A stretch of 50,596 bases of DNA, taken from sequence record MN850604.1. One strand, 5' to 3'. The number at the start of each line of letters is the position of its first letter. The stretch's first letter is position 1. The notes under the pieces are model-generated. The model did no database searches. It had not been told where the DNA came from and worked only from the letters and a program-made list of their open reading frames with translations. Of this stretch, positions 1,266 through 44,913 are shown piece by piece. The position numbers and the translations under genes were made by a program. Source of the DNA: Escherichia phage tunzivis.

Positions 1266-1481
1266 ATGAAAGATTTTATTAACGCAGCTACCGCTGGATC
1301 TGGCGGTTCATCTATCGCAAGCGCCGCTACAGGGCAGTTAACCATTGCTATTGCCAGCTTTGTTTTAATGGCTGCATTCGGTGCATGGGGCGCTTACCTT
1401 CGCTGGCGTGATAGTAAAAAATTCCACGAAGCGATCGAAAAAGGTGATATTCAAAAAGCTATTGAAATCAGGGGCAAGTAA
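1266..1481 (+). CDS. putative holin
   Basis: 71 aa; one hydrophobic TM stretch ([21 protein letters not shown]) and charged C-terminus; stop overlaps endolysin start (TAATG); RBS GGAGA upstream. Confidence 0.5.
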
Positions 1482-1972
1482 TGAGCATAAAGAACAGGGT
1501 AGCGGCTGCTGCCTTTGGCGTTGCGGTTGCCTTGACTTCTCCACTTCTTGAAGAGATCGAAGGGGTAAGATACAAGCCATACAAAGATATTGCTGGAGTA
1601 TGGACGGTTTGCGCAGGAATCACCGGACCAGATGTTATCCTGGGGAAAACGTACACTAAAAAAGAGTGTGATGCTTTGTTGGCTAAGCATATCCAGGTTG
1701 CTAAAAAGGAAGTTGACAAGCAAGTTAAGGTTGATATTCCTGATAGTATGCGTGCAGCAATGTACTCATTCACTTACAATGCAGGTGTGGGAGCTTTCAG
1801 AAATTCAACAATGCTGAAACTCATCAACCAGGGGAAATTAAACGAGGCTTGCGATCAGCTTTATCGTTGGACTTATTACCATAACCCAAAAACAGGAAAG
1901 CGCGAGAAGTCTAAAGGCTTACTTAACAGGCGCAAGGTCGAATACAAATATTGCACAATGGATCTGAAATGA
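1481..1972 (+). CDS. SAR endolysin (phage lysozyme, R21-like)
   Basis: 163 aa; N-terminal Ala/Gly-rich signal-anchor-release segment ([14 protein letters not shown]); lysozyme E-D-T region ([28 protein letters not shown]); [16 protein letters not shown] motif typical of P21/P22-type lysozymes. Confidence 0.85.
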
Positions 1973-2364
1973 TGAAGAATTTTTTACTTACACCAATCGC
2001 AATGGCGGTGATCTTGTCTGGATGTTCAAGCGTTACGCCACTGACCGGATTAATCGGCAGTAAGCCGGAAATCACAGCACAGGCTGGAGCGGAGAACGTG
2101 AAGCAGACAGTTGGCATTACAGCAAAGCAGGACGCCAGCACAAAACAGGAAACCACAATAAAGGAATCTGCGGTTGACAAGGTGGACACGTCCAGCAAGA
2201 AGGATTTCACAACATCAACCATTCAGGCCAATACCATCAAGGCAGACAAAATTCAGGTCGTGCAGGGTAATAACGGCAGATGGTACGATCCAGTAATCAT
2301 ATGCGTGGTTGTGTTTCTTGTGCTGATTTGTCTTTACTGGAGAGAAAAGAAAAAGGAGGCTTAA
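1969..2364 (+). CDS. unimolecular spanin (u-spanin, T1 gp11-like)
   Basis: ATG at 1969 overlaps endolysin stop (ATGA); lipoprotein signal with lipobox LSGC; C-terminal TM segment ([16 protein letters not shown]); position after endolysin. Confidence 0.6.
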
Positions 2365-5500: not shown

Positions 5501-5519
5501 CTTTTAACAAAAAGTGCTA
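5501..5519 (-). promoter_or_regulatory. conserved motif copy upstream of 5061..5447
   Basis: reverse complement of TAGCACTTTTTGTTAAAAg; hairpin GCCAGGTG..ACCTGGC; CATAAT 18 nt downstream. Confidence 0.55.
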
Positions 5520-8723: not shown

Positions 8724-8742
8724 GTTTTAACAAAAAGTGCTA
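8724..8742 (-). promoter_or_regulatory. conserved motif copy upstream of 8392..8664
   Basis: exact 19-mer; 18-nt spacer; TACATT; CATCGAAACGAACC leader. Confidence 0.55.
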
Positions 8743-8749
8743 TTTGACG

Positions 8750-9300
8750 GTTATCGCCAGGATTGCGATCGAAATAATCAAAAGTAATCATTCGTAATCA
8801 AATCACGTCAAAATGATGATTGCCTTTGCAAATTTGATGAGAAAAGCAATCACGTTTAATCATTGGTTGCAGGGGAGATAGTGAAACCTTCCCCTCTTGC
8901 CTCACTTTTCCGCTTGGCTGTCAGCGGTTGTTGTCTTTTGTTCACCCCTGTTACCGATTTCAGGCGGCGTGTTTCCGCGCGGTTTTCCGGTGTATCGAAA
9001 ACGGAAAAAACAAAAAAAATCCTTTATAATACATTGAAAATAAAGATTATTTATTTATATATATCTATAATGTTTTCTTTTTGTTCTCACTGTTACAGTG
9101 CTTTTTGTTGGGTATGGTGTGTTTGTGTGTGGGTATATATGGATAGTTGCGCGCGCGGCGGATTGCATATGTATATATACTTTTTCCGGCGGATTGCGTT
9201 AACAGCGTGAACAGAAAAATAACAGCCCTGAAATCAATAACTTGCGCATGATTTTGTAGTTTTTCGATATTGGTAACGTTTTGAATACAACAAAAACATT
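8750..9300. repeat. AT-rich divergent control region with short direct repeats (TAATCA-type), TA/TG-rich tracts and a motif-like AGTGCTTTTTGTT
   Basis: TAATCA/AATCAC repeats 8775..8870; GGTTTTCCGGTGTATCGAAAAC 8981..9002; TTATTTATTTATATATATCTATAAT 9047..9071; GTGTGTTTGTGTGTGGGTATATATGG 9118..9143. Confidence 0.5.
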
Positions 9301-9326
9301 GACACGCACAAAATAGCTTTTATAAT
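9299..9326 (+). promoter_or_regulatory. consensus sigma70 promoter (TTGACA-16 nt-TATAAT), candidate early promoter
   Basis: TTGACA at 9299..9304, TATAAT at 9321..9326; 32 bp upstream of first rightward gene. Confidence 0.65.
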
Positions 9327-9357: not shown

Positions 9358-9822
9358 ATGGAACAGAAGACCACTAAGGACTATTGCGATTGGCTTCGCG
9401 AGCTTGGTCGCCGCCTGGCTAGTGGCGATATTGAAGAGTATAAAATGTCACTAATTGACCTGGCCGGAATGTTAAGCGGTGACGACTGCTACAAGATCAC
9501 GCGCAGTTCATCCTACAGCCGGACCATTATCAACCGCGTTCCAGAAGTAAGGGCCGCAGGTCGGGTAAGCATCAAGGTAGAGGAAACGGAAGATGATAAA
9601 TTTTACGTTTTCCGCATGGTCCGCGAATCGAAAAGGAAAATCATCACACCCGAAGAATTGCCAGCCATCAAGGCAAGGGCGATCAAAAAGTTTGCCGATC
9701 GCATACTGGCAGCAATCCCGAATATCGTGGACCTGGAAGGGGATAAACTGGCTGGGGCTTGCGAGGGTGTAAGCCGCTACCAGGATATGATCCGCGAAAT
9801 CATCAAAGAGGAAGAGCAATGA
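9358..9822 (+). CDS. hypothetical early protein (first gene after consensus sigma70 promoter)
   Basis: ORF 9325..9822; ATG at 9358 preceded by GGAGGAAAGG; 154 aa; a possible DNA-binding role is speculation. Confidence 0.45.
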   Translation: MEQKTTKDYCDWLRELGRRLASGDIEEYKMSLIDLAGMLSGDDCYKITRSSSYSRTIINRVPEVRAAGRVSIKVEETEDDKFYVFRMVRESKRKIITPEELPAIKARAIKKFADRILAAIPNIVDLEGDKLAGACEGVSRYQDMIREIIKEEEQ

Positions 9823-10091
9823 AAAAGGCATTAATCAGCGTTTTGGCGGCAATGGCATTCCTGACCGGATGCAAAGAAGATGGCGCGCATGTTGGCAATG
9901 TGCAGATGGCTAACCCTGGCGATGACTACAGCGTAAGGGAGCTATTCACCGCTGACGGTTGCACCGTTTACCGATTCTATGACGATCGCACTGTTTACTT
10001 CACCAACTGCAAGGGCACTACTAGCTGGGAAGTGTCGAAAAGCAATGGCAAAGGCACGAAGACAGAACATATGACCGTCGAGACAAAATAG
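9819..10091 (+). CDS. lipoprotein (candidate superinfection-exclusion protein)
   Basis: ORF 9759..10091; ATG at 9819; signal peptide with lipobox LTGC; about 70 mature residues with two further Cys; stop TAG is part of the downstream motif. Confidence 0.5.
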   Translation: MKKALISVLAAMAFLTGCKEDGAHVGNVQMANPGDDYSVRELFTADGCTVYRFYDDRTVYFTNCKGTTSWEVSKSNGKGTKTEHMTVETK

Positions 10092-10107
10092 CACTTTTTG
10101 TTAAAAC
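10089..10107 (+). promoter_or_regulatory. conserved motif copy upstream of 10164..10349
   Basis: exact TAGCACTTTTTGTTAAAAC; hairpin GCCAGGTGCAAAGCCTGGC; CATAAT 10126..10131; leader CATCGAAACGAG. Confidence 0.6.
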
Positions 10108-10551: not shown

Positions 10552-10570
10552 TAGCACTTTTTGTTAAAAC
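10552..10570 (+). promoter_or_regulatory. conserved motif copy upstream of 10649..11542
   Basis: exact 19-mer; CATAAT 10589..10594 (18-nt spacer). Confidence 0.55.
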
Positions 10571-14273: not shown

Positions 14274-14328
14274 GCGGGGCGCAATGCCTCGCTATAATGC
14301 AAACACCAATCAACGAGAGGAAACAATC

Positions 14329-14730
14329 ATGGTGGAGTTAAACGACATTCGCGTTGGAACAAAATTTCGCGTAACCTGGGCAGATAAATATTGTGGCGTT
14401 AGCAAGGGCCAGGTTGTTGCGGTGGATAGTATTTATCGTGGTGTTAGTGGTGACTTTTGCCGTCCGCGCATCAATAATGGCTATATCATTACTCGCCGTA
14501 TTGGCTTTGATAATTATTGCGTAGTGGCGACTCAAGGAGTTTTGATTGAGCTTAAGAGAATCAGCGATCATCTCGGTCGTCATGTTAAGGCAATGAAAAC
14601 ACCATTTCAGCGAGCGAGATACGATGCGCGACGTATGCGCCGACTTGCGCGAAATGCGATCAAGTTCAAAAAGCCTGGCGATGATTTTTACGGCATGTAT
14701 AAGGGGATTGCGCGCAATGCTGGGAAATAA
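14329..14730 (+). CDS. hypothetical protein
   Basis: ORF 14284..14730; ATG at 14329 preceded by GAGAGGAAACA; downstream of variant motif and TATAAT. Confidence 0.45.
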   Translation: MVELNDIRVGTKFRVTWADKYCGVSKGQVVAVDSIYRGVSGDFCRPRINNGYIITRRIGFDNYCVVATQGVLIELKRISDHLGRHVKAMKTPFQRARYDARRMRRLARNAIKFKKPGDDFYGMYKGIARNAGK

Positions 14731-19861: not shown

Positions 19862-21154
19862 ATGAGCGAAAAAACAAGGCTAGTTAAGGCCGATGGATAC
19901 AACGAGATTTTCAAGGGTAGTAAGGGCAATGGGCGTGTAGAGTTGCCTTTCTTTATGCAGGGGTTCGAATACACCACGCACGCTGATTTTTACATTCGTG
20001 ACGGCCTAGCAAAACGAATCATCGACGTTGTTCCAGAAGAAATGGTGACGCCTGGATTTAATATTGATGGCGTGGAAGATGAGGAAAGTTTTAGATCTTT
20101 GTGGGATGAGAAGCGACTAAACGATAAAATCATTGATGCGCTTTGCTGGTCGCGTCTTTTTGGTGGCGCTGCAATCGTGGCAATCGTCCAGGATGGCAGG
20201 TCGTTAAAGTCACCTGTAGCGCCTGGTGCAATCCTTGAAGATGTTCGCGTTTACGATCGCTTTCAGGTTAGGGTAGAAAAGCGCGAAACTAATCCACGCA
20301 AGGTAAGATATGGTGAGCCATTAATTTACACCATTTCACCTGGTGCCGACTTGCCAGAATACCAGGTTCACTATTCGCGAGTCTGTATTATCGACGGTGA
20401 GCGGCTACCAAATCAGCGGCGTCAATCAAATGATGGGTGGGGTGAGTCGATCCTGAATAAGAGACTTGTTGAGGCTATTTGTGATTATAACTACTGCGAA
20501 AACTTAGCAACTCAATTGTTGCGACGTAAGCAACAGGCGGTATGGAAAGTTAAAGGTCTTGCTGATCTTTGTGATGATGATGATGGTGTTAGTGCCGCAC
20601 GTTTGCGACTTGCTCAAGTTGATGATGAGGGTGGCGTAGGCCGTGCGATCGGCATTGATGCGGAAGATGAGGAATATGATGTTTTAAATTCTGATATTTC
20701 TGCCGTCGATTCGTTCTTGGAAAAGAAGATGGATCGCATTGTATCTCTTTCCGGCATCCATGAAATCATCCTCAAAAACAAGAACGTTGGCGGTGTTAGC
20801 GCGAGCCAAAACACGGCGCTTGAAACCTTCTACAAGCTGATCGACCGAAAGCGAAAGGAAGAATACAAACCAATCCTTGAATTTCTGATCCCGTTCCTTA
20901 TTCAAGAGGAAGAATGGAGCATTCAGTTTGCGCCGTTAAGCGTTCCAAGCGAAAAGGACCAGGCCGAAATCTTGAACAAGAACATTGATTCTTTGAGTAA
21001 GGCTATTGACGGTCAATTCATGGATGCAGAAGAGGCGCGCGACACATTGCGAGCCATTGCGCCTAACGTTAAACTAAAAGACGGCAATGACATTAAATTA
21101 CCTGAGCAAGACGTAGAGCCAGAGCCAGGAACAACAGAGGGTAGCAATCAATGA
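19862..21154 (+). CDS. portal protein
   Basis: ORF 19856..21154 (TTG); ATG at 19862 with GGAG RBS; about 430 aa; acidic C-terminus; synteny after terminase. Confidence 0.7.
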   Translation: MSEKTRLVKADGYNEIFKGSKGNGRVELPFFMQGFEYTTHADFYIRDGLAKRIIDVVPEEMVTPGFNIDGVEDEESFRSLWDEKRLNDKIIDALCWSRLFGGAAIVAIVQDGRSLKSPVAPGAILEDVRVYDRFQVRVEKRETNPRKVRYGEPLIYTISPGADLPEYQVHYSRVCIIDGERLPNQRRQSNDGWGESILNKRLVEAICDYNYCENLATQLLRRKQQAVWKVKGLADLCDDDDGVSAARLRLAQVDDEGGVGRAIGIDAEDEEYDVLNSDISAVDSFLEKKMDRIVSLSGIHEIILKNKNVGGVSASQNTALETFYKLIDRKRKEEYKPILEFLIPFLIQEEEWSIQFAPLSVPSEKDQAEILNKNIDSLSKAIDGQFMDAEEARDTLRAIAPNVKLKDGNDIKLPEQDVEPEPGTTEGSNQ

Positions 21155-21906
21155 TAGTGAAAGGCGTCGTTAAACAATGGCGCTTTCCTGAAGCAAGCGA
21201 GCGGCAATTGCGCCGCTCAATTCAGGAGGCGATAAGGGATCTTGTTGTGCTGATGCGCAGCAAAACAAAGGAAATGAAATTTGACGCGGACACCGAAGAA
21301 ATCAACGCCGCAGAGGATGAGATTAGTAGCTTCGCGTTAAAGCTAATAGCTGGCATCGCCGCATCACTTCCGGCTATCGGTCTTGCTGTTTATAAATTCA
21401 ACGCGAAGCAATTTATTAACGTAGCCAAATCAACGGGAGGCAAGTCAAATTCAGCCGTTATCATCCTTATGGCTATTGGGGCCAATGCGAATGAGAGTTG
21501 GTATAGGACGCTATACGGTCAATGGCATGACATGACGATCGCGTCTCTTCAAAAGCTATTTGGAAACATCGTGTCTGACTGGTCAACCAATATTAGATTG
21601 GCAAACTTTCGCGGAATGAGAGATAGCCAGGTTAATGAATTGGCTGGTAAGAGGTTCGCAGTGTATAGCTCTTGGGGTAAGACAAGGGCGGAAAACATCA
21701 TAGGCGCTTGGAATAGTAGACTCATGCGCCAGCGTCTTTATGATTCAAAAGTAACTCATTATTTTTGGCATGGTATGCTTGATGACAGAGAGCGATTGCA
21801 GCATGTACAATGGGAAGGTAAGCGCATTGCGCTAGATTCTGAACATGATTTTCCTGGTGAGCCTTTCGGTTGTCGTTGTTGGGCCATACCAGATTGGAAC
21901 AGTTAA
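21151..21906 (+). CDS. head morphogenesis protein (Mu F / SPP1 gp7-like)
   Basis: 251 aa; ATGA overlap with portal; conserved position. Confidence 0.55.
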   Translation: MIVKGVVKQWRFPEASERQLRRSIQEAIRDLVVLMRSKTKEMKFDADTEEINAAEDEISSFALKLIAGIAASLPAIGLAVYKFNAKQFINVAKSTGGKSNSAVIILMAIGANANESWYRTLYGQWHDMTIASLQKLFGNIVSDWSTNIRLANFRGMRDSQVNELAGKRFAVYSSWGKTRAENIIGAWNSRLMRQRLYDSKVTHYFWHGMLDDRERLQHVQWEGKRIALDSEHDFPGEPFGCRCWAIPDWNS

Positions 21907-23604: not shown

Positions 23605-24393
23605 ATGGCTAAAGATTATTCATCTGTTATGGGTCTTTCTTGCCCTGGTTGTTTGGTTGATTCTACTCGCTACAATATTGATGGAACTGGTGTTTGCGGA
23701 TCTGAGTCGATCATTGCTGGCAAGGTTGTTTTCTTCAAAGAGAGAGTAGAAGGTTATAACATATTTGTTGATCAAAAAGAGGATAATGCAGTAGTTGCTG
23801 GTATTGCGCTAAGGAGCAACATAACAACAACAGTTAACGAGGATGGCGGGTACTCTGACTGCAAAGAAGGTGATCCTATTAGCGTTGTAACTCGTGGTCG
23901 CGTGTGGGTGTTAACTGAAAGTATTGATGAAGCTCCTTCACACGGTGAAAAAGTATATGTTAATAACGATGGATTTGTTGGTAAGTCCGGCGACCAGGTT
24001 GTTGATGGGTGGATTTTTACAGGTGATTTTATGAAATTTGACAGTAGCATTAACATTGTAGGGATTCATATCAAACCTGTAATAGTACATGTTCAAAAGT
24101 TAACAGCGGCTATTATTGAAGATGTTGAAGGTAACAAGCCTGATGGAAACAGACCAAACAATGAGCCTGTTAATCTCAAGGTTACTGTAGAGCCTGAATA
24201 TGCAACAGATAAAACTGGAACATGGGAGATTTCATTAGGAGGAGAATACGCATCAATTTCGCCAAGTGGTGACACGGCGCAAGTAACGCCATCAAGCAAT
24301 GGTGATGTATATGTAAACTGGGTGGCAAATGACGGATCTGGTGTATCTGACACATTTATCATCAACTTTGTAGATCCAGAGCCTGGCCCTTAA
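23605..24393 (+). CDS. capsid decoration-like protein, paralog 2, with C-terminal Ig-like domain
   Basis: 262 aa; N-terminal about 150 aa paralogous to 23045..23554 (YNIDG...TRGRVWV...WIFTGD); C-terminal beta-rich segment (NLKVTVEPEYATDKTGTWEISLGGEYASISPSGDTAQVTPSSNGDVYVNWV) resembles bacterial Ig-like domains. Confidence 0.5.
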   Translation: MAKDYSSVMGLSCPGCLVDSTRYNIDGTGVCGSESIIAGKVVFFKERVEGYNIFVDQKEDNAVVAGIALRSNITTTVNEDGGYSDCKEGDPISVVTRGRVWVLTESIDEAPSHGEKVYVNNDGFVGKSGDQVVDGWIFTGDFMKFDSSINIVGIHIKPVIVHVQKLTAAIIEDVEGNKPDGNRPNNEPVNLKVTVEPEYATDKTGTWEISLGGEYASISPSGDTAQVTPSSNGDVYVNWVANDGSGVSDTFIINFVDPEPGP

Positions 24394-28514: not shown

Positions 28515-28831
28515 AGCGGGCGGTTTACCTGTTTTACCTCAAGCCGCCAACTGACGCACAATTAGAGGCCGTCGGCCTATCCCGTTCAGACTACGAAGGG
28601 GAGGATCCGCCGGAGGTAATTTTTGATGAATCAATGTTTCAATCTTGGGATCTATTTTGCGCCATGCAGACGCAATGGAGATCGACTAGCGGCAGTGTGT
28701 ATGGGTTCGACTATAACGTTTTGCCTATGCTTTTTGACATTTACAAGATTGAGGATCGGGAGATGGCGCTAAATGATTTGCGCATCATGGAACAAAAGGC
28801 GCTAGAAATGATTCATTCAAACAAAACATAA
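28197..28831 (+). CDS. tail assembly chaperone GT (-1 programmed frameshift product)
   Basis: -1 frame stays open from 28511 to 28831 (the track ORF 28634..28831 is its distal part); lambda G/GT-like arrangement. Confidence 0.55.
28505..28511 (+). other. -1 programmed ribosomal frameshift slippery site A_AAA_AAC (G to GT)
   Basis: heptamer lies 1-2 codons before the G stop; -1 frame open for a further 107 codons. Confidence 0.6.
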
Positions 28832-28852
28832 GCGCCGAGAGGCGCTTTTTTA
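28831..28852 (+). terminator. rho-independent terminator after GT
   Basis: AGCGCC-gaga-GGCGCT then TTTTTT. Confidence 0.6.
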
Positions 28853-28870
28853 ATATCTGGAGGTTTTAAA

Positions 28871-31552
28871 ATGGCTGAAAAATACGCTGGCCTAACGCTA
28901 GGCGTTGACGTGTCGCAGGTCAACAATGCTGTTAAATCATTGCAGCAATTCAAGAAGGCAAACGACGACGCAAAAAAAAGCGTTAATGAATTTGTTGATT
29001 CTGAGGTTGTGGCGCGACAGCAAGCAAAACAGTTTGCCGAAGAACTGGCGCGCCAGAAAGCAGAATTTAAGAAAATCCAAGAGTCAATTGATCCCACCGC
29101 GTCAAAGATGGATAAGCTGCGAAAGGCAGCGACACAGCTTGATGCGCTATGGAAAAAGGGCATTGTTCCTGATGAGACTTTTTTTGAGCTTGGATCAATT
29201 CTTGAGACGCAGCAAAACAAGCTGATCGCAACAAAAAAAGCGATGACGGAGGAAGGCCGCGCGGCGCTTGAGGAATCAAAGAACAAAGCGCGTGCAGCGG
29301 AAGAGGCTAAAAAATTCGTCCAGGCTTTGCGTGAGCAGGAAGAAGCAGCCGGAAAAAGCAAGTCTGAATTGCTGGAAATGAAAGCGGCACAGCTTGGTGT
29401 TAGCCAGGAGGCAGCGCCTTACATCGCAAGGCTGAAAGAGCAGGAAAAGCAGATCCAAAAACTTGGAATTTCTACGGGCCAATACAAACAAGCAATGGCG
29501 CAATTGCCAATGCAGATCACAGACGTGGTGACTTCACTTGCTTCTGGAATGCCTGTTTGGTTGGTCGCAATCCAGCAGGGCGGACAGATTAAGGATTCTT
29601 TTGGTGGCGCATCCAATGCTTTAAAAGCGTTGCTATCTTTCCTGAATCCGGTAAACGTGGCGTTTGGCTTGCTTTCCGGTACGCTGGCAATTGCTGCATA
29701 TAATGCCTACAAAACACAGACAGAGTTTGAGGCAATTAAAAAAACCGTTCAGGAAACAACTGGCTTGACTGGTGATTTTGCCGAAAAGATTGCTACCGGA
29801 ATACAGGAGCTTTCCGACAAGACAGGCGAAAGCGCCGAAGATCTTGCAAAGGCTTACATCACTACGAAAGACGGCGCGAGCGAGGCGATTAAAAAACTGG
29901 TTGACGTTGGCATGACTTATGATGACGCAAAAAAGAAAGTCAACGAGTACAAGGGCGCGTCTAGCTTTGTCAGCTTGAATAACGAAATTGCAAACCACAA
30001 AAACAAAGTCCTTGAGTTGGGCGATTCGTGGTATGAGGTTTTGAAAGCGAAGCGTGATTACGCTTCCCCGTCCGGCGGCCTGTTAGGTAAGGAGCTTGGC
30101 TATGTTAACCCTATGCTTAAGTTTGCACTTAACACTTATGAAGACATTGGAAAGGTCGTAAAAGATGCGAATAAGGACATGGCGGAACGAGCGGAGCGAA
30201 TCGACAAAGAAAACCTGGCCTTAAACAGAGTGCGCGCAGCACAGGAGGCTTTAAACAAAGCTATTGAGGATCAGAAAAATGTGGCGCGTTCGGCTGATGA
30301 AGAACTGAAAAAGCGCGCGGCTGAAAACGTGGAGTTTAGGCGCAAAGAGCTTGAGGAAATCAAGAAGCAGGAGCAGAAAAAGAAAGAGGCTAAAGGTGGA
30401 ATAGTTCGCGGCCCGACTGAGCAGCTTGATAAAGAGTTGTACGTTTTAAAAGCGCAACTGGAGATGCTTAAAGAGCATCGCACTGTTAACGATGTTATTT
30501 CTCGCCAGCGTAAATCATTATGGAGTATCGAAAAGCAGATCGAGATCCTGGAGGAAGCGCAGAGCAAGCGTAAATTGACCGGAGCGGAACAGGCGCTACT
30601 AAACGAGCAAAAAGCCGTTCTTGAAATGGCAAGGCAAAAAGCGGAGCTAGGGGATCAGATTGTTTTACAGGAGCGCAAAAACAAGCTGGAGCAAGATAGC
30701 ATTAAGTTTATCCGTGAAACTCAGGCGGCTATTGATGTGCTTGGCCTTAAGCAACTTGGCTACACTGAAAAGCAGATCGAGCGTGAGCTAGAGTTACGCA
30801 AGCTGCGCACCGACTACGAGGCGCAAGGCGGAAGCATTAGCGATGAAGTTTTTCAGCAAATGGAGGCGAAACTTAAGCAGTATTATCAGACACAGGATGA
30901 GGTTCAAGGCAACTGGTTGGCAGGAGCAAAAAACGCATGGGAGATGTTCGCGGAAGATGCAAACAATGCCTATGGCAATGTTCAGCAGATCGCAAGCGAG
31001 GCGTTAAACGGCCTTACAAACCAATTAGCGAATTTTATCGCTACTGGCAAGGCAAACTTTAAAGACTTCTCGACGGCTATCATCAAAATGATTATTCAGA
31101 TGATTACGAAAATGGTTGTCTTTAATGCGTTATCTGGCCTGATGGGTGGTCAAACCTGGACGATGGGGAGCTTGCTTAAGAATATTGGCGGATTTGCTGG
31201 CGGTGGATACACTGGCGACGGCGGGAAGTATGAGCCAGCCGGAATTGTCCATAAAGGTGAATTTGTCATGACGAAGGAGGCGACGCAGCGTATCGGGGTA
31301 GGAAACTTGTACCGCATGATGCGAGGCTATGCTAACGGCGGCGTTGTTGGTAGTTCCGGCCATACTGGCGGTGGCGCTGTAACTGGTGGAGCACCTCAAT
31401 TTAACATCGGCGGGATTGATGTTAGCATCACTAACGGAAACGATCCGAAGGGCATCGAAACTGGTGTTAAGATGATCTTTACTGATATGATTAAACGTTC
31501 CTGTATGCAGGGCGGCGAGGTTTACGAATTTGTTATGAGCAAGCGAGGTTGA
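28871..31552 (+). CDS. tail tape measure protein
   Basis: 893 aa; highly alpha-helical Lys/Glu/Ala-rich; C-terminal Gly-rich region; canonical position. Confidence 0.85.
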   Translation: MAEKYAGLTLGVDVSQVNNAVKSLQQFKKANDDAKKSVNEFVDSEVVARQQAKQFAEELARQKAEFKKIQESIDPTASKMDKLRKAATQLDALWKKGIVPDETFFELGSILETQQNKLIATKKAMTEEGRAALEESKNKARAAEEAKKFVQALREQEEAAGKSKSELLEMKAAQLGVSQEAAPYIARLKEQEKQIQKLGISTGQYKQAMAQLPMQITDVVTSLASGMPVWLVAIQQGGQIKDSFGGASNALKALLSFLNPVNVAFGLLSGTLAIAAYNAYKTQTEFEAIKKTVQETTGLTGDFAEKIATGIQELSDKTGESAEDLAKAYITTKDGASEAIKKLVDVGMTYDDAKKKVNEYKGASSFVSLNNEIANHKNKVLELGDSWYEVLKAKRDYASPSGGLLGKELGYVNPMLKFALNTYEDIGKVVKDANKDMAERAERIDKENLALNRVRAAQEALNKAIEDQKNVARSADEELKKRAAENVEFRRKELEEIKKQEQKKKEAKGGIVRGPTEQLDKELYVLKAQLEMLKEHRTVNDVISRQRKSLWSIEKQIEILEEAQSKRKLTGAEQALLNEQKAVLEMARQKAELGDQIVLQERKNKLEQDSIKFIRETQAAIDVLGLKQLGYTEKQIERELELRKLRTDYEAQGGSISDEVFQQMEAKLKQYYQTQDEVQGNWLAGAKNAWEMFAEDANNAYGNVQQIASEALNGLTNQLANFIATGKANFKDFSTAIIKMIIQMITKMVVFNALSGLMGGQTWTMGSLLKNIGGFAGGGYTGDGGKYEPAGIVHKGEFVMTKEATQRIGVGNLYRMMRGYANGGVVGSSGHTGGGAVTGGAPQFNIGGIDVSITNGNDPKGIETGVKMIFTDMIKRSCMQGGEVYEFVMSKRG

Positions 31553-34115: not shown

Positions 34116-37100
34116 ATGGCTAAATATATGATAAGCGGCAGTAAGGGCGGAAGCAAAAAGCCATACGTGCCAAAAGAGATGGAAGATAACCTGATCTCGA
34201 TAAACAAGATTAAAGTTTTGCTGGCTGTATCTGATGGCGAGTGCGATCCAGATTTCACGTTGCGCGATCTTTATCTTGATGATGTTCCGGTTATTGCCAG
34301 CGATGGCACTGTTAACTACGAGGGTGTTACTGCTGAATATCGACCAGGTACGCAGACGCAAGATTACATCCAGGGTTTTACTGACACATCAAGTGAGGTG
34401 ACAGTTGCAAGAGATATTACCGGAGACAATCCTTATGTTATTTCTGTTACAAATAAAAATCTATCTGCGGTAAGAATAAAGATCCTGATGCCAGTAGGCA
34501 TAAAACAGGAGGATAACGGCGATCTTGTTGGCGTAAGGGTTGAGTATGCCGTAGATATGGCTATTGATGGCGGTTCTTATAGCGAGGTTATGAGAGATGT
34601 AATTGACGGCAAGACAAGATCAGGATACGACCGCAGCAGAAGGATTGATCTTCCTAAGTTTGATGAGCGCGTTTTAATCCGAGTAAAGCGACTGACTCCA
34701 GACAGCACATCTTCAAAGGTAACTGATAAAATCAAGCTGCAAAGTTACGCTGAGGTTGTTGATGCAAAATTCCGTTATCCTCTGACTGGCCTTGTATTCG
34801 TAGAATTTGACAGTGAATTGTTTCCTACGCAAATCCCTAACATTTCTATAAAAAAGAAATGGAAGATTATTAATGTGCCAAGCAACTATGATCCAATATC
34901 AAGAGAATATCACGGGTCATGGGATGGGACTTTTAAAAAAGCGTGGTCAAATAATCCCGCTTGGGTTCTTTATGATCTGGTGACAAATCAGCGTTATGGA
35001 CTTGATCAGCGAGAGTTAGGAATACAGATCGACAAGTGGAGCTTATACGAGGCGGGCGTTTACTGTGATCAGAAAGTTCCAGACGGTAAGGGCGGTACTG
35101 AGCCTCGCTACCTATGCGATGTGGTGATTCAGAATCAAGTTGAGGCTTATCAGCTAATCCGTGACATTTGCTCAATCTTTCGCGGAATGAGTTTTTGGAA
35201 TGGTGAGAGCTTATCAATCGTGATTGATAAGCCACGCGATCCATCATACGTGTTTACTAATGAAAACGTCATCAACGGTGATTTTCAGTACACAACCGCA
35301 AGCGAAAAAAGCATGTACACGCAGTGTAACGTGACGTTTGACGACGAACAAAACATGTATCAGCAGGACGTAGAGGGTGTTTTTGATACTGAGGCGGCAT
35401 TACGATTTGGATACAATCCAACAAGCATTACAGCGATCGGGTGCACACGCAGGAGCGAAGCGAATCGTCGCGGTCGGTGGGTTTTGAAAACAAACCTTAG
35501 AAGCACTACTGTAAACTTTGCTACCGGACTAGAGGGGATGATTCCATCAATAGGTGATGTTATTGCTATCGCTGATAATTTTCAGAGTAGCAACCTAACG
35601 TTAAACCTATCGGGCCGAGTAATGGAAGTTTCAGGATTGCAGGTTTTCGTTCCGTTTAAGGTTGATGCTCGCCCTAGTGATTTTATTATCATCAACAAGC
35701 CGGACGGCAAGCCAGTTAAGCGCACGATCTCAAAGGTTAGCGCAGACGGAAAAACCATAGAGTTAAATATTGGATTTGGTTTTGATGTTAAGCCTGATAC
35801 TGTTTTTGCGATTGACCGTACTGATCTTGCGTTGCAGCAATACGTTGTGACAACTATCAGCAAGGGTGATGACGAAAACGAGTTTACCTATTCAATCACG
35901 GCTGTGGAGTACGATCCGAACAAATACGACGAGATTGATTATGGCGTAAACATTGATGACAGGCCGACTTCAATTGTTCAGCCTGACGTGATGGCAGCGC
36001 CTGAGAACGTTAAGATCTCATCTTATTCTCGCGTCGTGCAGGGCGTTAGCGTTGAGACTATGGTTGTTTCATGGGATAAGGTTCCTTACGCATCGCTTTA
36101 TGAAATGCAGTGGCGAAAAGGTGATGGTAACTGGCTGAATACGCCGCAGACCGCTAACAAAGAGATAGAGGTAGAAGGGATTTATTCAGGCAACTACCAA
36201 GTAAGGGTGAGATCCGTTTCTGCAAGCGGTAACACTTCCCCGTGGTCAAGGATTGCAACCGCAACCCTGACAGGTAAAGTTGGCGAGCCAGGAGCGCCGA
36301 TTAATCTTACAGCCTCTGATAATGAAGTTTTTGGCATTCGTGTTAAATGGGGTATGCCGGAAGGTTCAGGCGATACTGCCTACATTGAGCTTCACCAATC
36401 GCCAGATGGAACGGTGGAAAACTCAAGTCTTCTTACGCTGATCCCATATCCGCAATATGAGTATTGGCATAGCACTTTACCAGCGGGGCAAGTTGTATGG
36501 TATAGAATCCGCAGCGTTGACAGAATAGGCAACGTTTCAAGCTGGACTGACTTTGTTCGCGGCATGGCGTCAGATGACGTTGAATCTGTTTTGGGCGACA
36601 TTCTGGACAAGATTTTTGATACAGAAGCTGGTCAAGAAATCAAAGAGAACGCCATAGACAGTGCCAATAAAATCAAAGACCAGGCGCAATCAATCATACA
36701 GAACGCGTTGGCAAATGATGCAGATGTGAAGTGGACGCGAGTGCAAAACGGAAAGCGCAAGGCTGAATATGGTCATGCTCTTGAGCTTATCGCCAATGAA
36801 ACAGAAGCGCGCGTAACTCAAATCGAAGAGTTAAGGGCATCAATTGATGGCGAGATAACATCAAGCATCAAGACAGTGCAGGAGGCAATTGCCACTGAAT
36901 CAGAGACGCGAGCGACTCAAATTCAGCAGCTTGATTCTAAATTCACAAAAGAAATCGACGGCGTGCGCAAGGATACTTCTGCAAGCATTAGCGATGTAAG
37001 GCAGACAATCACTAACGAGTCAGAAGCGCGCGCTCAGGCCGTTCAGCAGCTTGACGCTAAGTTCACGAAAGAGATAAACGACCTTGACGGAGTTATCAAA

Positions 37101-37694
37101 ACAGAAGTCGAGGCTAACATCTCAGAAGTGAAACAGGCGATCGCCAATGAGACAGAGGCAAGGGTTCAGGCTGACCAGGCATTAACAGCACGATTTGGCG
37201 ACGTTGAATCTGCATTGGTTGAAAAGTTGGATTCTTGGGCGAGCGTTGATTCAGTTGGGGCTAAATACGCTATGAAACTTGGCCTTACTTACAAAGGCCA
37301 GCAATACAGCGCAGGAATGGTGATGCAGCTTTCGCAGGGTTCATCCGGCCTTATATCGCAAATTTTGTTTGATGCTAACAGGTTCGCCATTATGACTAGC
37401 TCTACTGGAGGGACTTTTACTTTGCCTTTCGTGGTTGAGAATAATCAGGTTTTCATTAATAGTCTTTTGGTGAAGAACGGTTCAATCACTAATGCGATGA
37501 TTGGTAATGTGATTCAGTCAAACAACTTTGTTCAAAACCAGCAAGGATGGAGGCTTGATAAAAACGGAATCTTTGAGAATTACGGATCAACGCCAGGAGA
37601 AGGAGCTACTAAATTCACCAATGAGGGATTGAAGGTAAAAGATGCAAACGGAGTATTGAGGGTTGAAGTCGGAAGGATTACCGGAAGATGGTAA
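34116..37694 (+). CDS. central tail fibre / host specificity protein (lambda gpJ-like)
   Basis: ORF 34065..37694; ATG at 34116; about 1190 aa; fibronectin-III-like segment; C-terminal tandem 35-44-aa repeats; last gene of tail operon. Confidence 0.85.
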   Translation: MAKYMISGSKGGSKKPYVPKEMEDNLISINKIKVLLAVSDGECDPDFTLRDLYLDDVPVIASDGTVNYEGVTAEYRPGTQTQDYIQGFTDTSSEVTVARDITGDNPYVISVTNKNLSAVRIKILMPVGIKQEDNGDLVGVRVEYAVDMAIDGGSYSEVMRDVIDGKTRSGYDRSRRIDLPKFDERVLIRVKRLTPDSTSSKVTDKIKLQSYAEVVDAKFRYPLTGLVFVEFDSELFPTQIPNISIKKKWKIINVPSNYDPISREYHGSWDGTFKKAWSNNPAWVLYDLVTNQRYGLDQRELGIQIDKWSLYEAGVYCDQKVPDGKGGTEPRYLCDVVIQNQVEAYQLIRDICSIFRGMSFWNGESLSIVIDKPRDPSYVFTNENVINGDFQYTTASEKSMYTQCNVTFDDEQNMYQQDVEGVFDTEAALRFGYNPTSITAIGCTRRSEANRRGRWVLKTNLRSTTVNFATGLEGMIPSIGDVIAIADNFQSSNLTLNLSGRVMEVSGLQVFVPFKVDARPSDFIIINKPDGKPVKRTISKVSADGKTIELNIGFGFDVKPDTVFAIDRTDLALQQYVVTTISKGDDENEFTYSITAVEYDPNKYDEIDYGVNIDDRPTSIVQPDVMAAPENVKISSYSRVVQGVSVETMVVSWDKVPYASLYEMQWRKGDGNWLNTPQTANKEIEVEGIYSGNYQVRVRSVSASGNTSPWSRIATATLTGKVGEPGAPINLTASDNEVFGIRVKWGMPEGSGDTAYIELHQSPDGTVENSSLLTLIPYPQYEYWHSTLPAGQVVWYRIRSVDRIGNVSSWTDFVRGMASDDVESVLGDILDKIFDTEAGQEIKENAIDSANKIKDQAQSIIQNALANDADVKWTRVQNGKRKAEYGHALELIANETEARVTQIEELRASIDGEITSSIKTVQEAIATESETRATQIQQLDSKFTKEIDGVRKDTSASISDVRQTITNESEARAQAVQQLDAKFTKEINDLDGVIKTEVEANISEVKQAIANETEARVQADQALTARFGDVESALVEKLDSWASVDSVGAKYAMKLGLTYKGQQYSAGMVMQLSQGSSGLISQILFDANRFAIMTSSTGGTFTLPFVVENNQVFINSLLVKNGSITNAMIGNVIQSNNFVQNQQGWRLDKNGIFENYGSTPGEGATKFTNEGLKVKDANGVLRVEVGRITGRW
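36788..37180 (+). repeat. in-frame tandem repeats (~105-130 bp) within J gene
   Basis: four degenerate units beginning ATCGCCAATGA(A/G)ACAGA(A/G)GC / ATCACTAACGAGTCAGAAGC, encoding I-(A/T)-N-E-(T/S)-E-A-R...QQLD(A/S)KFTKEI. Confidence 0.6.
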
Positions 37695-37724
37695 AAAAGG
37701 GGGCATAGCCCCCTTTAATTTTAA
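37695..37724. terminator. bidirectional terminator between J and the convergent leftward operon
   Basis: AAAAAAGGGGGC-ata-GCCCCCTTTAATTTT. Confidence 0.6.
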
Positions 37725-38335
37725 TCATAGTGTGATGCATTTATAACCAAAACAGATGAAGCGGTGTAAATACCAACAGGTCCAGGAGTTTGTGCAACCT
37801 GCCTAGAAAAAGAGTAGATCCCGTTACCATACGCGGCAGCTTGAGACTCAAAAATCATGAATCCACCTAAAGCCGGATTAGGAACAGAGTTTAATGCTGT
37901 CAGTGATGGCATTATGGCGCAAGGATAGCCCATGTTAACATCAAATGCGATCCCGCTTACGCCTACTTGCTTTGCATCTAGCGGCCTCATTTTTCCATGA
38001 TAAACCATTTCACCATGAGCATTATAAAACGCTATGCCGTGACTACCTGGGGGAGTAACCATATTACTAAAAGCATAAACAATAACCTCACCCTGATTAT
38101 CAGATCTATCAAGTCTTATTGCGTGCCTTCCACCATTGTTAAATTGCGTGAATGATATGTATGATTTAGCGGTCAATCTAACAAAGAAAAAACATACCCT
38201 ATCAACAGGAATTGACGAAGTAAAAACGGTTCCGGTATTAGCAGATATTACGGCCCGATCAATTAGATTAACTGGAGTGAAATCTGGACTTAACCATAAC
38301 GATCCGTCTGATTTTTTTATACTCATCCCGTACAT
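37721..38335 (-). CDS. hypothetical protein
   Basis: ORF 37721..38347 (TTG); start tentatively at ATG 38335; downstream of lipoprotein gene in same operon. Confidence 0.4.
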   Translation of the reverse strand: MYGMSIKKSDGSLWLSPDFTPVNLIDRAVISANTGTVFTSSIPVDRVCFFFVRLTAKSYISFTQFNNGGRHAIRLDRSDNQGEVIVYAFSNMVTPPGSHGIAFYNAHGEMVYHGKMRPLDAKQVGVSGIAFDVNMGYPCAIMPSLTALNSVPNPALGGFMIFESQAAAYGNGIYSFSRQVAQTPGPVGIYTASSVLVINASHYD

Positions 38336-38337
38336 TA

Positions 38338-38616
38338 TCACCCCCAAAAAGTATATATATATCTTGAATCAGATCCAGAAAGCCCACTCCATGTAACGGT
38401 GTCGCCACTCACCCCTAAGTTTGGTGCGCCAGGGTCGCCACCACGCCAGGAATTCATGCCAACATATATTGCTTTCAATGATTTACCTGGCGGCCTGTTT
38501 TGGTAAGTCTTGCTACCTGATGGCTGAGTGAATTTATCAAGGAAGAAAACAGGCGTTAAAAGTCCTGTAACTTCCCTTCCTCGATCGTCATATATTGCAT
38601 AACCATATTGCGCCAT
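38338..38616 (-). CDS. hypothetical protein
   Basis: 92-aa ORF; TAATG overlap with upstream lipoprotein gene. Confidence 0.4.
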   Translation of the reverse strand: MAQYGYAIYDDRGREVTGLLTPVFFLDKFTQPSGSKTYQNRPPGKSLKAIYVGMNSWRGGDPGAPNLGVSGDTVTWSGLSGSDSRYIYTFWG

Positions 38617-38885
38617 TAATTACACCTCAAATCAATAAATTTACTTTCATTTTGCCAACGGTTGATAAATTTAACTTCTTTATTGTCAACGCTCAACCTG
38701 TATTGCTTTTGGCTGAATCTGTTTTCGCGGACTGCATTAATTTTGACTTCATGGAATCCGTTAACAGGGAATGTTTTAACGTTAAATTTTGCCGTGCAAT
38801 CGATCTCCTTGAAGTTGCCAGTAGGCGACGCTGCGCATCCTGTCAGAGCGGCTACAGTGGCGATAACTGCGATTAACTTTTTCAT
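38616..38885 (-). CDS. lipoprotein (candidate Cor/Llp-like superinfection-exclusion protein)
   Basis: 89 aa; signal peptide with lipobox LTGC; first gene behind a motif-type promoter; near tail-fibre region as cor-type genes are in other phages. Confidence 0.5.
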   Translation of the reverse strand: MKKLIAVIATVAALTGCAASPTGNFKEIDCTAKFNVKTFPVNGFHEVKINAVRENRFSQKQYRLSVDNKEVKFINRWQNESKFIDLRCN

Positions 38886-38937
38886 CTTTATATCTCCTTA
38901 GTTGTTGTTTTCAACTATACACGATCTTGGGCATCGC

Positions 38938-38955
38938 GTTTAGCAAAAAGTGCTA
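38938..38955 (-). promoter_or_regulatory. conserved motif copy (variant TAGCACTTTTTGCTAAAC) upstream of lipoprotein operon 38885->37721
   Basis: 18-nt spacer then TATAGT; RBS AAGGAGAT. Confidence 0.5.
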
Positions 38956-39325
38956 TTTGTTATTTTTTGTTTTCCGGTGTTATCGAATTTAAGACGGCGT
39001 AAATTTAGCGCAAAATTTAGACAACATAAGATCAATAAACAATCAATAAAATAGATATATACATATAAAATCAATAGTTTATTTATTTATGTATGTATAT
39101 TTGTTTTTTCTTGTTATCTGCGTTTCTTGTGGTTTTGGTTGTTTGTGGTGATTTTTCTTTCTGAGTATCTGTATGTGCCATCATTCATGTGTATGTATAT
39201 AATCCGGCGTATCTGAGAGAACATGGTAACAAGAAAAATAACACACATTAATCATTAACTTATGAGTCAAATCTGTTTTCTTGCCATCTGAGAACGTTTA
39301 GAAAACAGAAAAAACAAAACAGCTA
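38956..39325. repeat. second AT-rich divergent control region, partly homologous to 8750..9300
   Basis: GTTTTCCGGTGTTATCGAA 38969..38987 matches 8982..8999 with one inserted T; ATCAATA repeats; TTTATTTATTTATGTATGTATAT; GT-rich TGTGGTTTTGGTTGTTTGTGGTG. Confidence 0.5.
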
Positions 39326-39353
39326 TTGACTAAATCAACCAAATGGCTACAAT
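39326..39353 (+). promoter_or_regulatory. near-consensus sigma70 promoter (TTGACT-16 nt-TACAAT), candidate early promoter for recombination operon
   Basis: TTGACT 39326..39331, TACAAT 39348..39353; 30 bp upstream of exonuclease gene. Confidence 0.6.
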
Positions 39354-39383
39354 GCACGCATAAAGCAACAAGGAGCATTAAAG

Positions 39384-41930: not shown

Positions 41931-41959
41931 AAAAGCCCCGCATATGCGGGGCATTTTTT
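41931..41959. terminator. bidirectional terminator between ssb and convergent tail-fibre operon
   Basis: AAAAAGCCCCGC-atat-GCGGGGCATTTTTT. Confidence 0.65.
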
Positions 41960-42632: not shown

Positions 42633-42644
42633 TTTCCTAACTCC

Positions 42645-44878: not shown

Positions 44879-44896
44879 TTGTAAAATCCTCCTAAA

Positions 44897-44913
44897 TAGC
44901 ACTTTTTGCTAAT
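44897..44913 (+). promoter_or_regulatory. near-palindromic conserved motif copy abutting RBS of tail fibre gene
   Basis: TAGCACTTTTTGCTAAT; read on the gene strand gives ATTAGCAAAAAGTGCTATTTAGGAGG...ATG. Confidence 0.45.

What the first reader, a model, noticed from the sequence alone, without database searches (positions are those of the whole stretch)
9819..10091. Two unrelated small lipoproteins (9819..10091 and 38616..38885): candidate receptor-blocking superinfection exclusion
Both ORFs encode about 90-aa proteins with a classical lipoprotein signal and lipobox LTGC. One follows the first early gene after the consensus early promoter; the other is the first gene of a leftward operon next to the tail-fibre region. 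Small outer-membrane lipoproteins in T1/T5/phi80-type phages (Cor, Llp) inactivate the phage receptor FhuA. Two distinct lipoproteins may target different receptors or act at different times.
Basis: inference. Interest (0 to 1): 0.5.

Follow-up and report, generated by a model that had tools for sequence, protein, structure and literature searches.

The report
Two phage lipoproteins, one guards BtuB
This T1-like coliphage encodes two real, unrelated small lipoproteins: one sits in the receptor-recognition cassette and most likely blocks the vitamin-B12 transporter BtuB (not FhuA) after infection, while the other belongs to a large uncharacterised phage family whose function is not tied to the phage's receptor.

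Summary
Both ORFs are real lipoprotein genes with LTGC lipoboxes. The only other lipoprotein signal in the window is the u-spanin. The window is a Warwickvirus (Drexlerviridae).

Lp2 (38616..38885, minus) heads a leftward operon, Lp2-p92-p204, between gpJ and the exonuclease gene. All three proteins are 100% identical to those of phage Tuinin and about 99% to FritzSarasin. Both phages need btuB, not fhuA, in published genetic screens. FhuA-dependent relatives (T1, PeterMerian) carry canonical Cor there instead. The database "Cor" match of Lp2 comes from its signal peptide; the mature domain does not match Cor. Lp2 is therefore a positional and functional analogue of Cor/Llp, most likely directed at BtuB. 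This kind of protein is expected at this locus.

Lp1 (9819..10091, plus) is a DUF4884 lipoprotein. It is the second gene after the window's only perfect sigma-70 promoter. The family is large (about 1,800 clusters) and occurs in unrelated phages. Lp1 alleles swap independently of receptor type: the same allele occurs with BtuB and FhuA cassettes, and different alleles occur with the same BtuB cassette. It is not the cognate receptor blocker, and its function remains unknown.

Interest is modest.

The parts
9299..9326 (+). Perfect sigma-70 consensus promoter (TTGACA-16-TATAAT) driving the DUF7174-Lp1 unit
   Evidence: this is the only 12/12 match in the whole window.
9358..9822 (+). First early gene: DUF7174 protein of 154 aa, translationally coupled to Lp1
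   Evidence: Pfam PF23796, E 5.6e-51. The start codon follows the relatives' annotation. ATGA overlap with Lp1.
9819..10091 (+). Lp1: 90-aa DUF4884 lipoprotein. Lipobox LTGC at 9861..9872; invariant Cys48 (9960..9962) and Cys64 (10008..10010).
   Evidence: (PF16225, 31.8 bits against a cut-off of 30, matching core residues 35-64).
9857..10087 (+). Allelic cassette: the part of Lp1 that encodes the mature domain
   Evidence: 45-65% nucleotide identity to FritzSarasin inside this stretch, 90-100% in the flanks on both sides.
10090..10105 (+). First copy of the promoter-associated motif AGCACTTTTTGTTAAA. It overlaps the Lp1 stop codon and marks the start of the next transcription unit.
38914..38954 (-). 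Promoter-like element of the Lp2 operon: motif AGCACTTTTTGCTAAA (38954..38939), 19 nt, then TATAGT (38919..38914)
   Evidence: The same element lies upstream of PeterMerian cor and of the KarlJaspers Lp2 homologue.
38616..38885 (-). Lp2: 89-aa lipoprotein and positional equivalent of Cor. Lipobox LTGC at 38835..38846; invariant Cys30 and Cys88.
38338..38616 (-). p92: homologue of T1 gp32 (phrog_557), an accessory protein of the receptor-specificity module with no signal peptide
   Evidence: E 4.3e-20. T1 gp32 hits the same PHROG. 100% identical to Tuinin.
37721..38335 (-). p204: homologue of T1 gp31 (phrog_425), the putative BtuB-binding receptor-binding protein
   Evidence: (E 1.1e-49). It probably corresponds to the Tuinin gene the preprint names as RBP ('CDS_0022' in its own re-annotation; Tuinin's GenBank CDS0022 is this 204-aa gene). 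This mapping is inferred from matching gene numbers. 100% identical to Tuinin.
37696..37716 (.). Bidirectional intrinsic terminator between the converging gpJ gene and the Lp2 operon
34116..37694 (+). gpJ-like central tail fibre / tail tip protein, to which the module's proteins are thought to attach
   Evidence: (phrog_31).

Best explanation
The window is a Warwickvirus (T1-like siphovirus) with two genuine, unrelated outer-membrane-type lipoprotein genes that do different jobs.

Lp2 (38616..38885, minus strand) is the superinfection-exclusion component of a BtuB-specific host-recognition cassette, Lp2-p92-p204. This cassette replaces the Cor-gp32-gp31 cassette found in FhuA-dependent relatives. 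Lp2 is transcribed from an early/middle-type phage promoter together with the receptor-binding genes. It is then exported, lipidated and anchored in the inner leaflet of the outer membrane. There it most likely binds the periplasmic face of the TonB-dependent transporter BtuB and makes it unusable for the phage's receptor-binding protein. This would work like Llp on FhuA and Rtp45 on LptD. The result would be to block superinfection and to stop progeny being lost on cell debris.

Lp1 (9819..10091, plus strand) is a DUF4884-family lipoprotein made immediately after infection from the only perfect host-type promoter in the window. It is not the cognate blocker of the phage's own receptor. It most likely acts on some widely conserved envelope component. 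Its target is unknown.

What is shown: the gene structures, the lipoprotein signals, family membership, synteny, identity to BtuB-dependent phages, and allele independence. What is inferred: lipidation, localisation, BtuB binding, expression timing, and any activity of Lp1.
For: Identity of the phage: 98-99% nucleotide identity to Warwickvirus genomes.

Lp2 context: its two partner proteins hit the same PHROGs as T1 gp32 and gp31. The cassette lies between gpJ and the exonuclease VIII gene, as cor does in T1 and PeterMerian.

BtuB link: Lp2, p92 and p204 are 100% identical to those of Tuinin, 98.5-98.9% identical to FritzSarasin, and 55-72% identical, with the same architecture, to KarlJaspers. 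RB-TnSeq screens give btuB, sdaC and dcrB, and not fhuA, for Tuinin, FritzSarasin and KarlJaspers. Maffei et al. list BtuB for FritzSarasin (Bas04) and KarlJaspers (Bas06). PeterMerian, of the same genus, needs FhuA and has the T1-type cassette with canonical Cor.

Precedent: small lipoproteins next to receptor-binding genes are proven exclusion factors for FhuA (Llp) and LptD (Rtp45).

Lp1: the Pfam DUF4884 match falls on the core domain. The family has 1,795 cluster representatives, nearly all lipoproteins of about 80-95 aa. Members occur in early-type gene arrays of unrelated Serratia, Pseudomonas and Xanthomonas phages, in metagenomic phage contigs and in a Pseudomonas prophage. The same allele (84/86 identical) occurs in BtuB-dependent FritzSarasin and FhuA-dependent PeterMerian. 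The window carries a 39%-identical mature allele beside a BtuB cassette that is 98.5-98.9% identical to FritzSarasin's. A homologue, rtp3, is present in the LptD phage Rtp. T1 has none.
Against: No experiment has tested either protein. BtuB dependence was measured on relatives, not on this phage.

No good sigma-70 promoter was found upstream of Lp2, so its timing rests on an uncharacterised promoter-like motif.

The Lp1 model has low confidence (pLDDT 65) and matches only generic beta-meanders. Nothing links Lp1 to a target. A search for loci that co-vary with its allele found none.
Confidence: 0.55

Rival explanations
1. One reading: Lp2 (and perhaps Lp1) is a Cor/Llp-type protein that inactivates FhuA.
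For: Full-length Lp2 hits the Cor PHROG (E 8.4e-8) and weakly hits NCBIfam Cor. It occupies the Cor position. One GenBank record labels it Cor (Kalemo).
Against: Those hits come from the signal peptide. The mature domain gives no Cor hit at E<=1, whereas mature T1 Cor scores 3e-19. hhalign on mature domains gives E 0.014 over 16 columns. The NCBIfam score of 19.2 is below the cut-off of 31. Phages with the identical cassette need btuB and not fhuA. FhuA-dependent relatives carry a different cassette.
Confidence: 0.04
2. Lp1 is a second receptor blocker. It would target another outer-membrane protein, either one used by competing phages (heterotypic exclusion) or a co-receptor.
For: It is an early-expressed small lipoprotein of the outer-membrane type, like T5 Llp. 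Its mature part is a sharply bounded allelic cassette, which fits a protein under arms-race or modular exchange.
Against: The allele is independent of the BtuB/FhuA cassette. The core motif is strongly conserved in phages of Pseudomonas, Xanthomonas and Serratia, which share no receptor. It is not adjacent to any receptor-binding gene. There is no fold or sequence similarity to Llp, Cor or Rtp45.
Confidence: 0.15
3. Lp1 blocks a step after adsorption, namely periplasmic or inner-membrane DNA entry. Its relatives need DcrB and SdaC for this step. This would resemble exclusion by HK97 gp15 or T4 Imm/Sp rather than receptor masking.
For: Tuinin, FritzSarasin, KarlJaspers and PeterMerian all need dcrB, and the three BtuB-dependent ones also need sdaC. 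All four carry Lp1 homologues. T1 and JulesPiccard show no Lp1 homologue in the regions searched, and JulesPiccard needs only fhuA and tonB.
Against: AugustePiccard needs dcrB but has no Lp1 in its early region. The family also occurs in non-enterobacterial phages. The +2 residue predicts an outer-membrane anchor, not an inner-membrane one. The sample is small and follows phylogeny.
Confidence: 0.12
4. Lp2 is a maturation or assembly helper of the receptor-binding module rather than an exclusion factor.
For: It is translationally coupled to and co-transcribed with p92 and p204. In T1 the homologous gp32/gp31 genes are transcribed with the tail genes, separately from cor.
Against: A lipoprotein signal sends Lp2 to the periplasm, whereas virions assemble in the cytoplasm, and p92 and p204 have no signal peptides. 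Receptor-adjacent lipoproteins in three other systems are exclusion factors.
Confidence: 0.07

Closest known systems
Cor (phage exclusion lipoprotein of T1, phi80, N15, HK022; phrog_1119, NCBIfam NF047972)
   Same: For Lp2: a small lipoprotein with a lipobox. Same genomic slot, between gpJ plus gp31/gp32-like genes and the exonuclease VIII gene. Same Cys pattern, one near the N-terminus and one near the C-terminus. In PeterMerian, of the same genus, even the promoter, 5'UTR and signal peptide are shared.
   Different: The mature domain has no significant similarity to Cor. It is 72 residues rather than 58. It is linked to BtuB-dependent rather than FhuA-dependent phages. Here the gp32/gp31-like genes are inverted and lie in the same operon as the lipoprotein.
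Llp of phage T5 (lytic conversion lipoprotein; PDB 8A60 chain B)
Rtp45 / Oekolampad exclusion lipoprotein (LptD-directed; PDB 9RPS)
   Same: It lies in the same locus downstream of gpJ in small siphoviruses and has the same logic: a cognate exclusion lipoprotein beside the receptor-binding gene.
   Different: It is about 6 kDa, targets a protein that is not a TonB-dependent transporter, and works by steric clash. No match to Lp1 or Lp2 appeared in the PDB sequence or fold searches.
Receptor-blocking lipoprotein of BtuB-dependent T5-like phages (BF23, DT57C)
   Same: It is the precedent that a phage lipoprotein can block BtuB. This rests on my own knowledge of Mondigler et al. 2006, which I did not read here. 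T5-like BtuB phages do carry Llp homologues.
   Different: tblastn with Lp2 found no T5-like phage, so this is an independent lineage.
DUF4884 (Pfam PF16225; phrog_6360)
   Same: Lp1 passes the Pfam gathering threshold on its core domain. It shares the family architecture: lipobox, a linker of about 24 residues, then the LFTxDGCTVYRFYD...YFTNC core with an invariant Cys pair.
   Different: Lp1 lacks the second Cys pair (CGKxC) found in most members. No member has a known function.

Membership tests
Bacterial lipoproteins (Lgt/LspA substrates) | N-terminal signal peptide with a basic n-region, an uncharged hydrophobic core and a lipobox [LVI][ASTVI][GAS]C | tested here: met
   Both proteins have MKK..., 11-12 uncharged hydrophobic residues and LTGC. 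The Cys is conserved across both families. Lipidation itself cannot be tested here.
Cor exclusion lipoproteins (NF047972 / phrog_1119) | Profile match of the mature domain, or a score above the curated cut-off | tested here: not met
   For Lp2, NCBIfam gives 19.2 bits against a cut-off of 31. The full-length PHROG hit (E 8.4e-8) disappears once the signal peptide is removed, while mature T1 Cor scores 3.1e-19. hhalign of mature domains gives E 0.014, probability 3%. Lp1 matches only through its signal peptide.
Cor exclusion lipoproteins (NF047972 / phrog_1119) | Location beside gp31/gp32-type genes immediately downstream of gpJ | tested here: met
   Met for Lp2: p204 hits phrog_425 and p92 hits phrog_557, the same families as T1 gp31 and gp32. 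Not met for Lp1, which lies about 24 kb upstream of gpJ.
Cor exclusion lipoproteins (NF047972 / phrog_1119) | Association with FhuA-dependent phages and inactivation of FhuA | tested here: not met
   Phages carrying the identical or nearly identical cassette need btuB, not fhuA. Inactivation of a receptor cannot be tested here.
Cor / Llp superfamily | Conserved intramolecular Cys pair, one shortly after the lipid Cys and one at the C-terminus (Llp Cys11-Cys58) | tested here: met
   Lp2 Cys30 and Cys88, at mature positions 14 and 72 of 73 (counting from the lipid Cys), are invariant in 13 homologues. The corresponding pair in Cor is C25/C73. The Llp disulfide is described.
Llp (T5) | Fold similarity to Llp bound to FhuA (8A60_B) | tested here: inconclusive
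DUF4884 (PF16225) | Pfam score above the gathering threshold, on the core domain | tested here: met
   Lp1 scores 31.8 bits against 30, over residues 35-64. The mature domain alone hits phrog_6360 at E 2.4e-4. A family profile finds 1,795 representatives. Lp2 has no such hit.
Unimolecular spanins (T1 gp11 type) | Lipoprotein signal plus a C-terminal transmembrane helix, located in the lysis cassette | tested here: not met
   Neither Lp1 nor Lp2 has a C-terminal hydrophobic segment. The true u-spanin is at 1969..2364, next to the holin and endolysin genes.
Rtp45-type LptD exclusion lipoproteins | Sequence or fold similarity to Rtp45 (PDB 9RPS) | tested here: not met

The most novel reading that the evidence does not exclude
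DUF4884 lipoproteins such as Lp1 could be a widespread class of early phage effectors that act independently of the phage's receptor. They would be anchored in the outer membrane and act on a conserved envelope component. Possible roles include a general block of a step after adsorption, or interference with envelope-stress sensing. The family has about 1,800 sequence clusters across virulent and temperate phages of Gram-negative bacteria. Separately, Lp2 may be an independently evolved BtuB blocker whose mature domain is unrelated to Cor and Llp.
Probability: 0.25. Interest if true: 0.6.

Novelty: new member of a known kind. Interest (0 to 1): 0.33.

Why it matters
For Lp2, the practical point is annotation and cocktail design. 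Pipelines that label this protein "Cor" imply FhuA exclusion. The evidence points to BtuB instead, and the label itself comes from the shared signal peptide. A BtuB-Lp2 complex would test whether the "reverse allostery" seen for Llp-FhuA applies to other TonB-dependent transporters. For Lp1, the value is a pointer. A very large, almost uniformly lipidated phage protein family has no known function. In this phage it is expressed from the strongest host-type promoter, which makes it an easy candidate for expression screens.

Tried and rejected
(1) Cor homology of Lp2. The full-length PHROG, NCBIfam and hhalign hits looked convincing. Lp1 gave equally good hhalign scores against Cor and against Lp2 through the signal peptide alone. 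Trimming the signal peptides removed the signal.

(3) Search for a partner locus of the Lp1 allele. A gene-by-gene comparison with FritzSarasin and PeterMerian gave two candidates, 23605..24393 and 14284..14730. Database tables showed that neither tracks the Lp1 allele.

(4) Coupling of DUF7174 and Lp1 as a two-gene module. This holds only within Drexlerviridae (Rtp rtp1 and rtp3), not in distant phages.

(5) Correlation of Lp1 presence with DcrB dependence. AugustePiccard breaks it.

(6) PADLOC defence models gave no hits. Rfam found nothing in the 500-bp spacer upstream of Lp2.

(7) Literature. Nothing functional was found on DUF4884, nothing on SECphi27 with 'lipoprotein', and nothing on the promoter-like motif. 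The Rtp genome paper could not be read.

Full report
WHAT THE WINDOW IS. The two regions are 98-99% identical at the DNA level to Escherichia phages tonn, tunus, tinuso, swan01, SECphi27 and Tuinin, all Drexlerviridae, Tempevirinae, genus Warwickvirus. The gene order matches T1-like phages. A lysis cassette comes first (holin, endolysin, u-spanin at 1266..2364). A leftward block of small genes follows, then a rightward block of small genes starting at about 9300. After that come the terminase, head and tail genes up to gpJ (34116..37694), and then the recombination, lateral tail fibre and replication genes.

THE OBSERVATION. Both ORFs exist as described. Lp1 (9819..10091, plus strand) begins MKKALISVLAAMAFLTGC. 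Lp2 (38616..38885, minus strand) begins MKKLIAVIATVAALTGC. A scan of every possible start codon in all six frames found only three convincing lipoprotein signals: these two and the u-spanin, which also has the expected C-terminal membrane helix. Neither Lp1 nor Lp2 has Asp at +2, so the E. coli sorting rule predicts outer-membrane anchoring. This is an inference. The context statements also hold. The only 12/12 sigma-70 consensus promoter in the window is at 9299..9326. It is followed by a DUF7174 gene whose stop codon overlaps the Lp1 ATG. Lp2 has a TAAGGAG ribosome-binding site and leads a tightly packed minus-strand operon, Lp2-p92-p204. This operon ends at a bidirectional terminator next to the gpJ stop codon. 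With signal peptides removed, the two families show no similarity (hhalign E 0.34).

LP2: WHAT THE DATABASES SAY AND WHY IT MISLEADS. Full-length Lp2 hits the PHROG 'Cor superinfection exclusion protein' at E 8.4e-8 and NCBIfam Cor at 19.2 bits, below the cut-off of 31. A profile-profile comparison with canonical Cor proteins gave 97% probability. However, the unrelated Lp1 family scored almost as well against Cor and against Lp2, and those alignments covered only the signal peptide. After trimming to the mature domains, Lp2 against Cor fell to E 0.014 over 16 C-terminal columns. Mature Lp2 gave no Cor PHROG hit at all, while mature T1 Cor scored 3e-19. The 'Cor' label is therefore produced by the signal peptide. 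A recent paper that reports Cor-like proteins in BtuB-dependent Tempevirinae from HMM hits may be affected in the same way.

LP2: WHICH RECEPTOR. Lp2, p92 and p204 are 100% identical to the Tuinin proteins, 98.5-98.9% identical to FritzSarasin, and 55%, 72% and 64% identical to KarlJaspers, which has the same three-gene minus-strand layout. Maffei et al. list BtuB as the terminal receptor of FritzSarasin (Bas04) and KarlJaspers (Bas06), and FhuA for PeterMerian (Bas05). A 2026 preprint gives genome-wide transposon screens. Tuinin (CPL00160), Bas04 and Bas06 select btuB, sdaC and dcrB. Bas05 selects fhuA and dcrB. Bas03 selects fhuA and tonB. The preprint also lists JK16 as BtuB-dependent. It names 'CDS_0022' of its own re-annotation as Tuinin's receptor-binding protein. 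In Tuinin's GenBank record, CDS0022 is the 204-aa gene, so this is probably the p204 homologue; the mapping rests on matching gene numbers only. The same cassette occurs in a Dhillonvirus, which fits horizontal exchange of these modules. This phage therefore almost certainly adsorbs to BtuB. The lipoprotein in its recognition cassette is best read as the cognate BtuB blocker. Adjacent lipoproteins have been shown to be exclusion factors for FhuA (Llp) and LptD (Rtp45). A BtuB-blocking lipoprotein is known from BF23; this last point is from my own knowledge and was not checked here.

LP2: EXPRESSION. No ordinary sigma-70 promoter lies upstream of Lp2 on the minus strand. Instead, a 16-nt motif, AGCACTTTTTGCTAAA, sits at 38954..38939, followed 19 nt later by TATAGT. 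The motif occurs 20 times in the window, against 2.1 expected by chance. Nearly all copies are intergenic and co-oriented with the downstream gene, and each is followed by a -10-like hexamer. It is abundant in the small-gene and replication regions and nearly absent, in the sense orientation, from the structural block. I therefore infer an early or middle promoter class. The same element, 5'UTR and signal peptide precede canonical cor in PeterMerian, and the sequences diverge only in the mature domain. T1 cor has an ordinary TTGCAA-17-TACAAT promoter instead.

LP1: FAMILY. Lp1 passes the Pfam DUF4884 threshold on residues 35-64, not on its signal peptide. Homologues share LFTxDGCTVYRFYDDRTVYFTNCKG with invariant C48 and C64. 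Most also carry a second pair, CGKxC, which this protein lacks. A profile search of 1.84 billion representatives found 1,795 clusters at E<=0.001 and 752 at E<=1e-10. Almost all are 80-95 aa, with a lipobox, a linker of about 24 residues and the core. Members sit in arrays of small early-type genes in Serratia myoviruses, a Pseudomonas phage, a Xanthomonas jumbo phage, metagenomic phage contigs of 71 and 124 kb, and a Pseudomonas prophage-like region. No publication assigns the family a function. The structural model has low confidence and is uninformative.

LP1: NOT THE COGNATE RECEPTOR BLOCKER. Against FritzSarasin, nucleotide identity is 90-100% on both sides of the gene but drops to 45-65% exactly across the part that encodes the mature domain (9857..10087). 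The signal peptide stays conserved. The FritzSarasin allele is 84/86 identical to the PeterMerian allele, although one phage uses BtuB and the other FhuA. The window's mature Lp1 is 39% identical (28/72) to FritzSarasin's, although the BtuB cassettes of the two phages are 98.5-98.9% identical. The tables show the same independent assortment across many genomes. The LptD phage Rtp has a homologue, rtp3. T1 has none. JulesPiccard and AugustePiccard have a different gene at the syntenic position. An exclusion factor matched to the phage's own receptor should travel with the receptor cassette, and Lp1 does not. The strongly conserved core across hosts argues for a conserved target or a structural scaffold. 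I could not identify the target. Tests for co-variation with two candidate loci failed. The idea that Lp1 acts on the DcrB/SdaC-dependent entry step is only loosely compatible with the data.

VERDICT. Lp2 is an expected component of a known type of module, a receptor-specificity cassette with its own exclusion lipoprotein, but it is aimed at BtuB rather than FhuA, and its mature domain cannot be assigned to the Cor family by sequence. Lp1 is a member of a large, uncharacterised phage lipoprotein family. It is expressed from the strongest host-type promoter, and there is no evidence that it blocks a receptor. Neither result would surprise a specialist. The open question worth an experiment is what DUF4884 lipoproteins do.

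Noticed in passing
window, 20 sites, e.g. 5503..5518(-), 8726..8741(-), 10090..10105(+), 10553..10568(+), 38939..38954(-), 48949..48964(+), 50020..50035(+): The 16-nt motif AGCACTTTTTGYTAAA occurs 20 times, against 2.1 expected. Nearly all copies are intergenic and co-oriented with the next gene. Each is followed about 20 nt later by a -10-like CATAAT, TATAAT or TATAGT, with no properly spaced -35. The spacer often holds an inverted repeat of variable sequence. The motif is also present in T1 (13 sites) and PeterMerian (15 sites). It looks like a phage-specific promoter class, perhaps dependent on an activator. No paper in the library contains the string.
   Followed up: partly
window 9857..10087 and 38616..38846; compare L004 (PeterMerian) 20985..21330: For both lipoprotein genes, the mosaic breakpoints fall at the junction between signal peptide and mature domain. 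The promoter, 5'UTR and signal peptide stay conserved while the mature domain is swapped. For Lp2 the receptor-binding genes are swapped along with it. The right-hand boundary of the Lp1 cassette coincides with a copy of the promoter motif.
   Followed up: partly
window 1969..2364 (+): A third lipoprotein gene: the unimolecular spanin. It has lipobox ILSGC and a C-terminal transmembrane helix, and it follows the holin (1266..1481) and endolysin (1481..1972) genes.
   Followed up: partly
window 37721..38616 (-); T1 (L002) 28607..29601: p92, p204 and their T1 and PeterMerian counterparts all start with a similar motif, M-(A)-x-YG-x-x-[IFL]-x-[DK]-x-x-G. The larger proteins repeat it internally, for example HGIAFYNAHGEMVY in p204 and WGMAIWDASGKLVL in T1 gp31. 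[quoted passage not shown]
   Followed up: no
published screens on relatives (preprint Dataset S1); relevant to the whole window: Phages with the identical cassette (Tuinin), or a homologous cassette of the same architecture (FritzSarasin, KarlJaspers), need the inner-membrane serine transporter SdaC and the periplasmic lipoprotein DcrB as well as BtuB. They do not need TonB. This is the host-factor set I recall for the classical phage C1. The phage determinant for SdaC and DcrB use is not known.
   Followed up: partly
window 38886..39383 and 8742..9298: Two AT-rich non-coding spacers of about 500 bp lie between divergent transcription units. The first is also present between cor and the exonuclease gene in T1. 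Rfam finds nothing in it.
   Followed up: partly
window 23605..24393 (+) and 41958..44902 (-): The 262-aa head-region gene, annotated elsewhere as capsid fibre or scaffolding protein, is only about 65% identical to most congeners but 96-99% identical to a minority. The lateral tail fibre locus follows the three-gene PeterMerian layout rather than FritzSarasin's single long gene. These are further mosaic cassettes, and they are independent of both lipoprotein alleles.
   Followed up: partly
GenBank MG0656xx records seen: About 20 records named 'Campylobacter phage' with host C. jejuni carry genes that are 36-85% identical at protein level to genes of these E. coli Drexlerviridae (84-86% for the 148-aa gene). 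The host attribution looks doubtful.
   Followed up: no
Lp1 family alignment A1 against PDB: The DUF4884 core (DGCTVYRFYDDRTVYFTNCKGTTxW) resembles a single blade of designed and PQQ-type beta-propellers ('Cake' proteins). Each blade scores only about 3.5 bits, so the low E-value comes from summed repeats. This may be no more than a shared beta-hairpin pattern.
   Followed up: no
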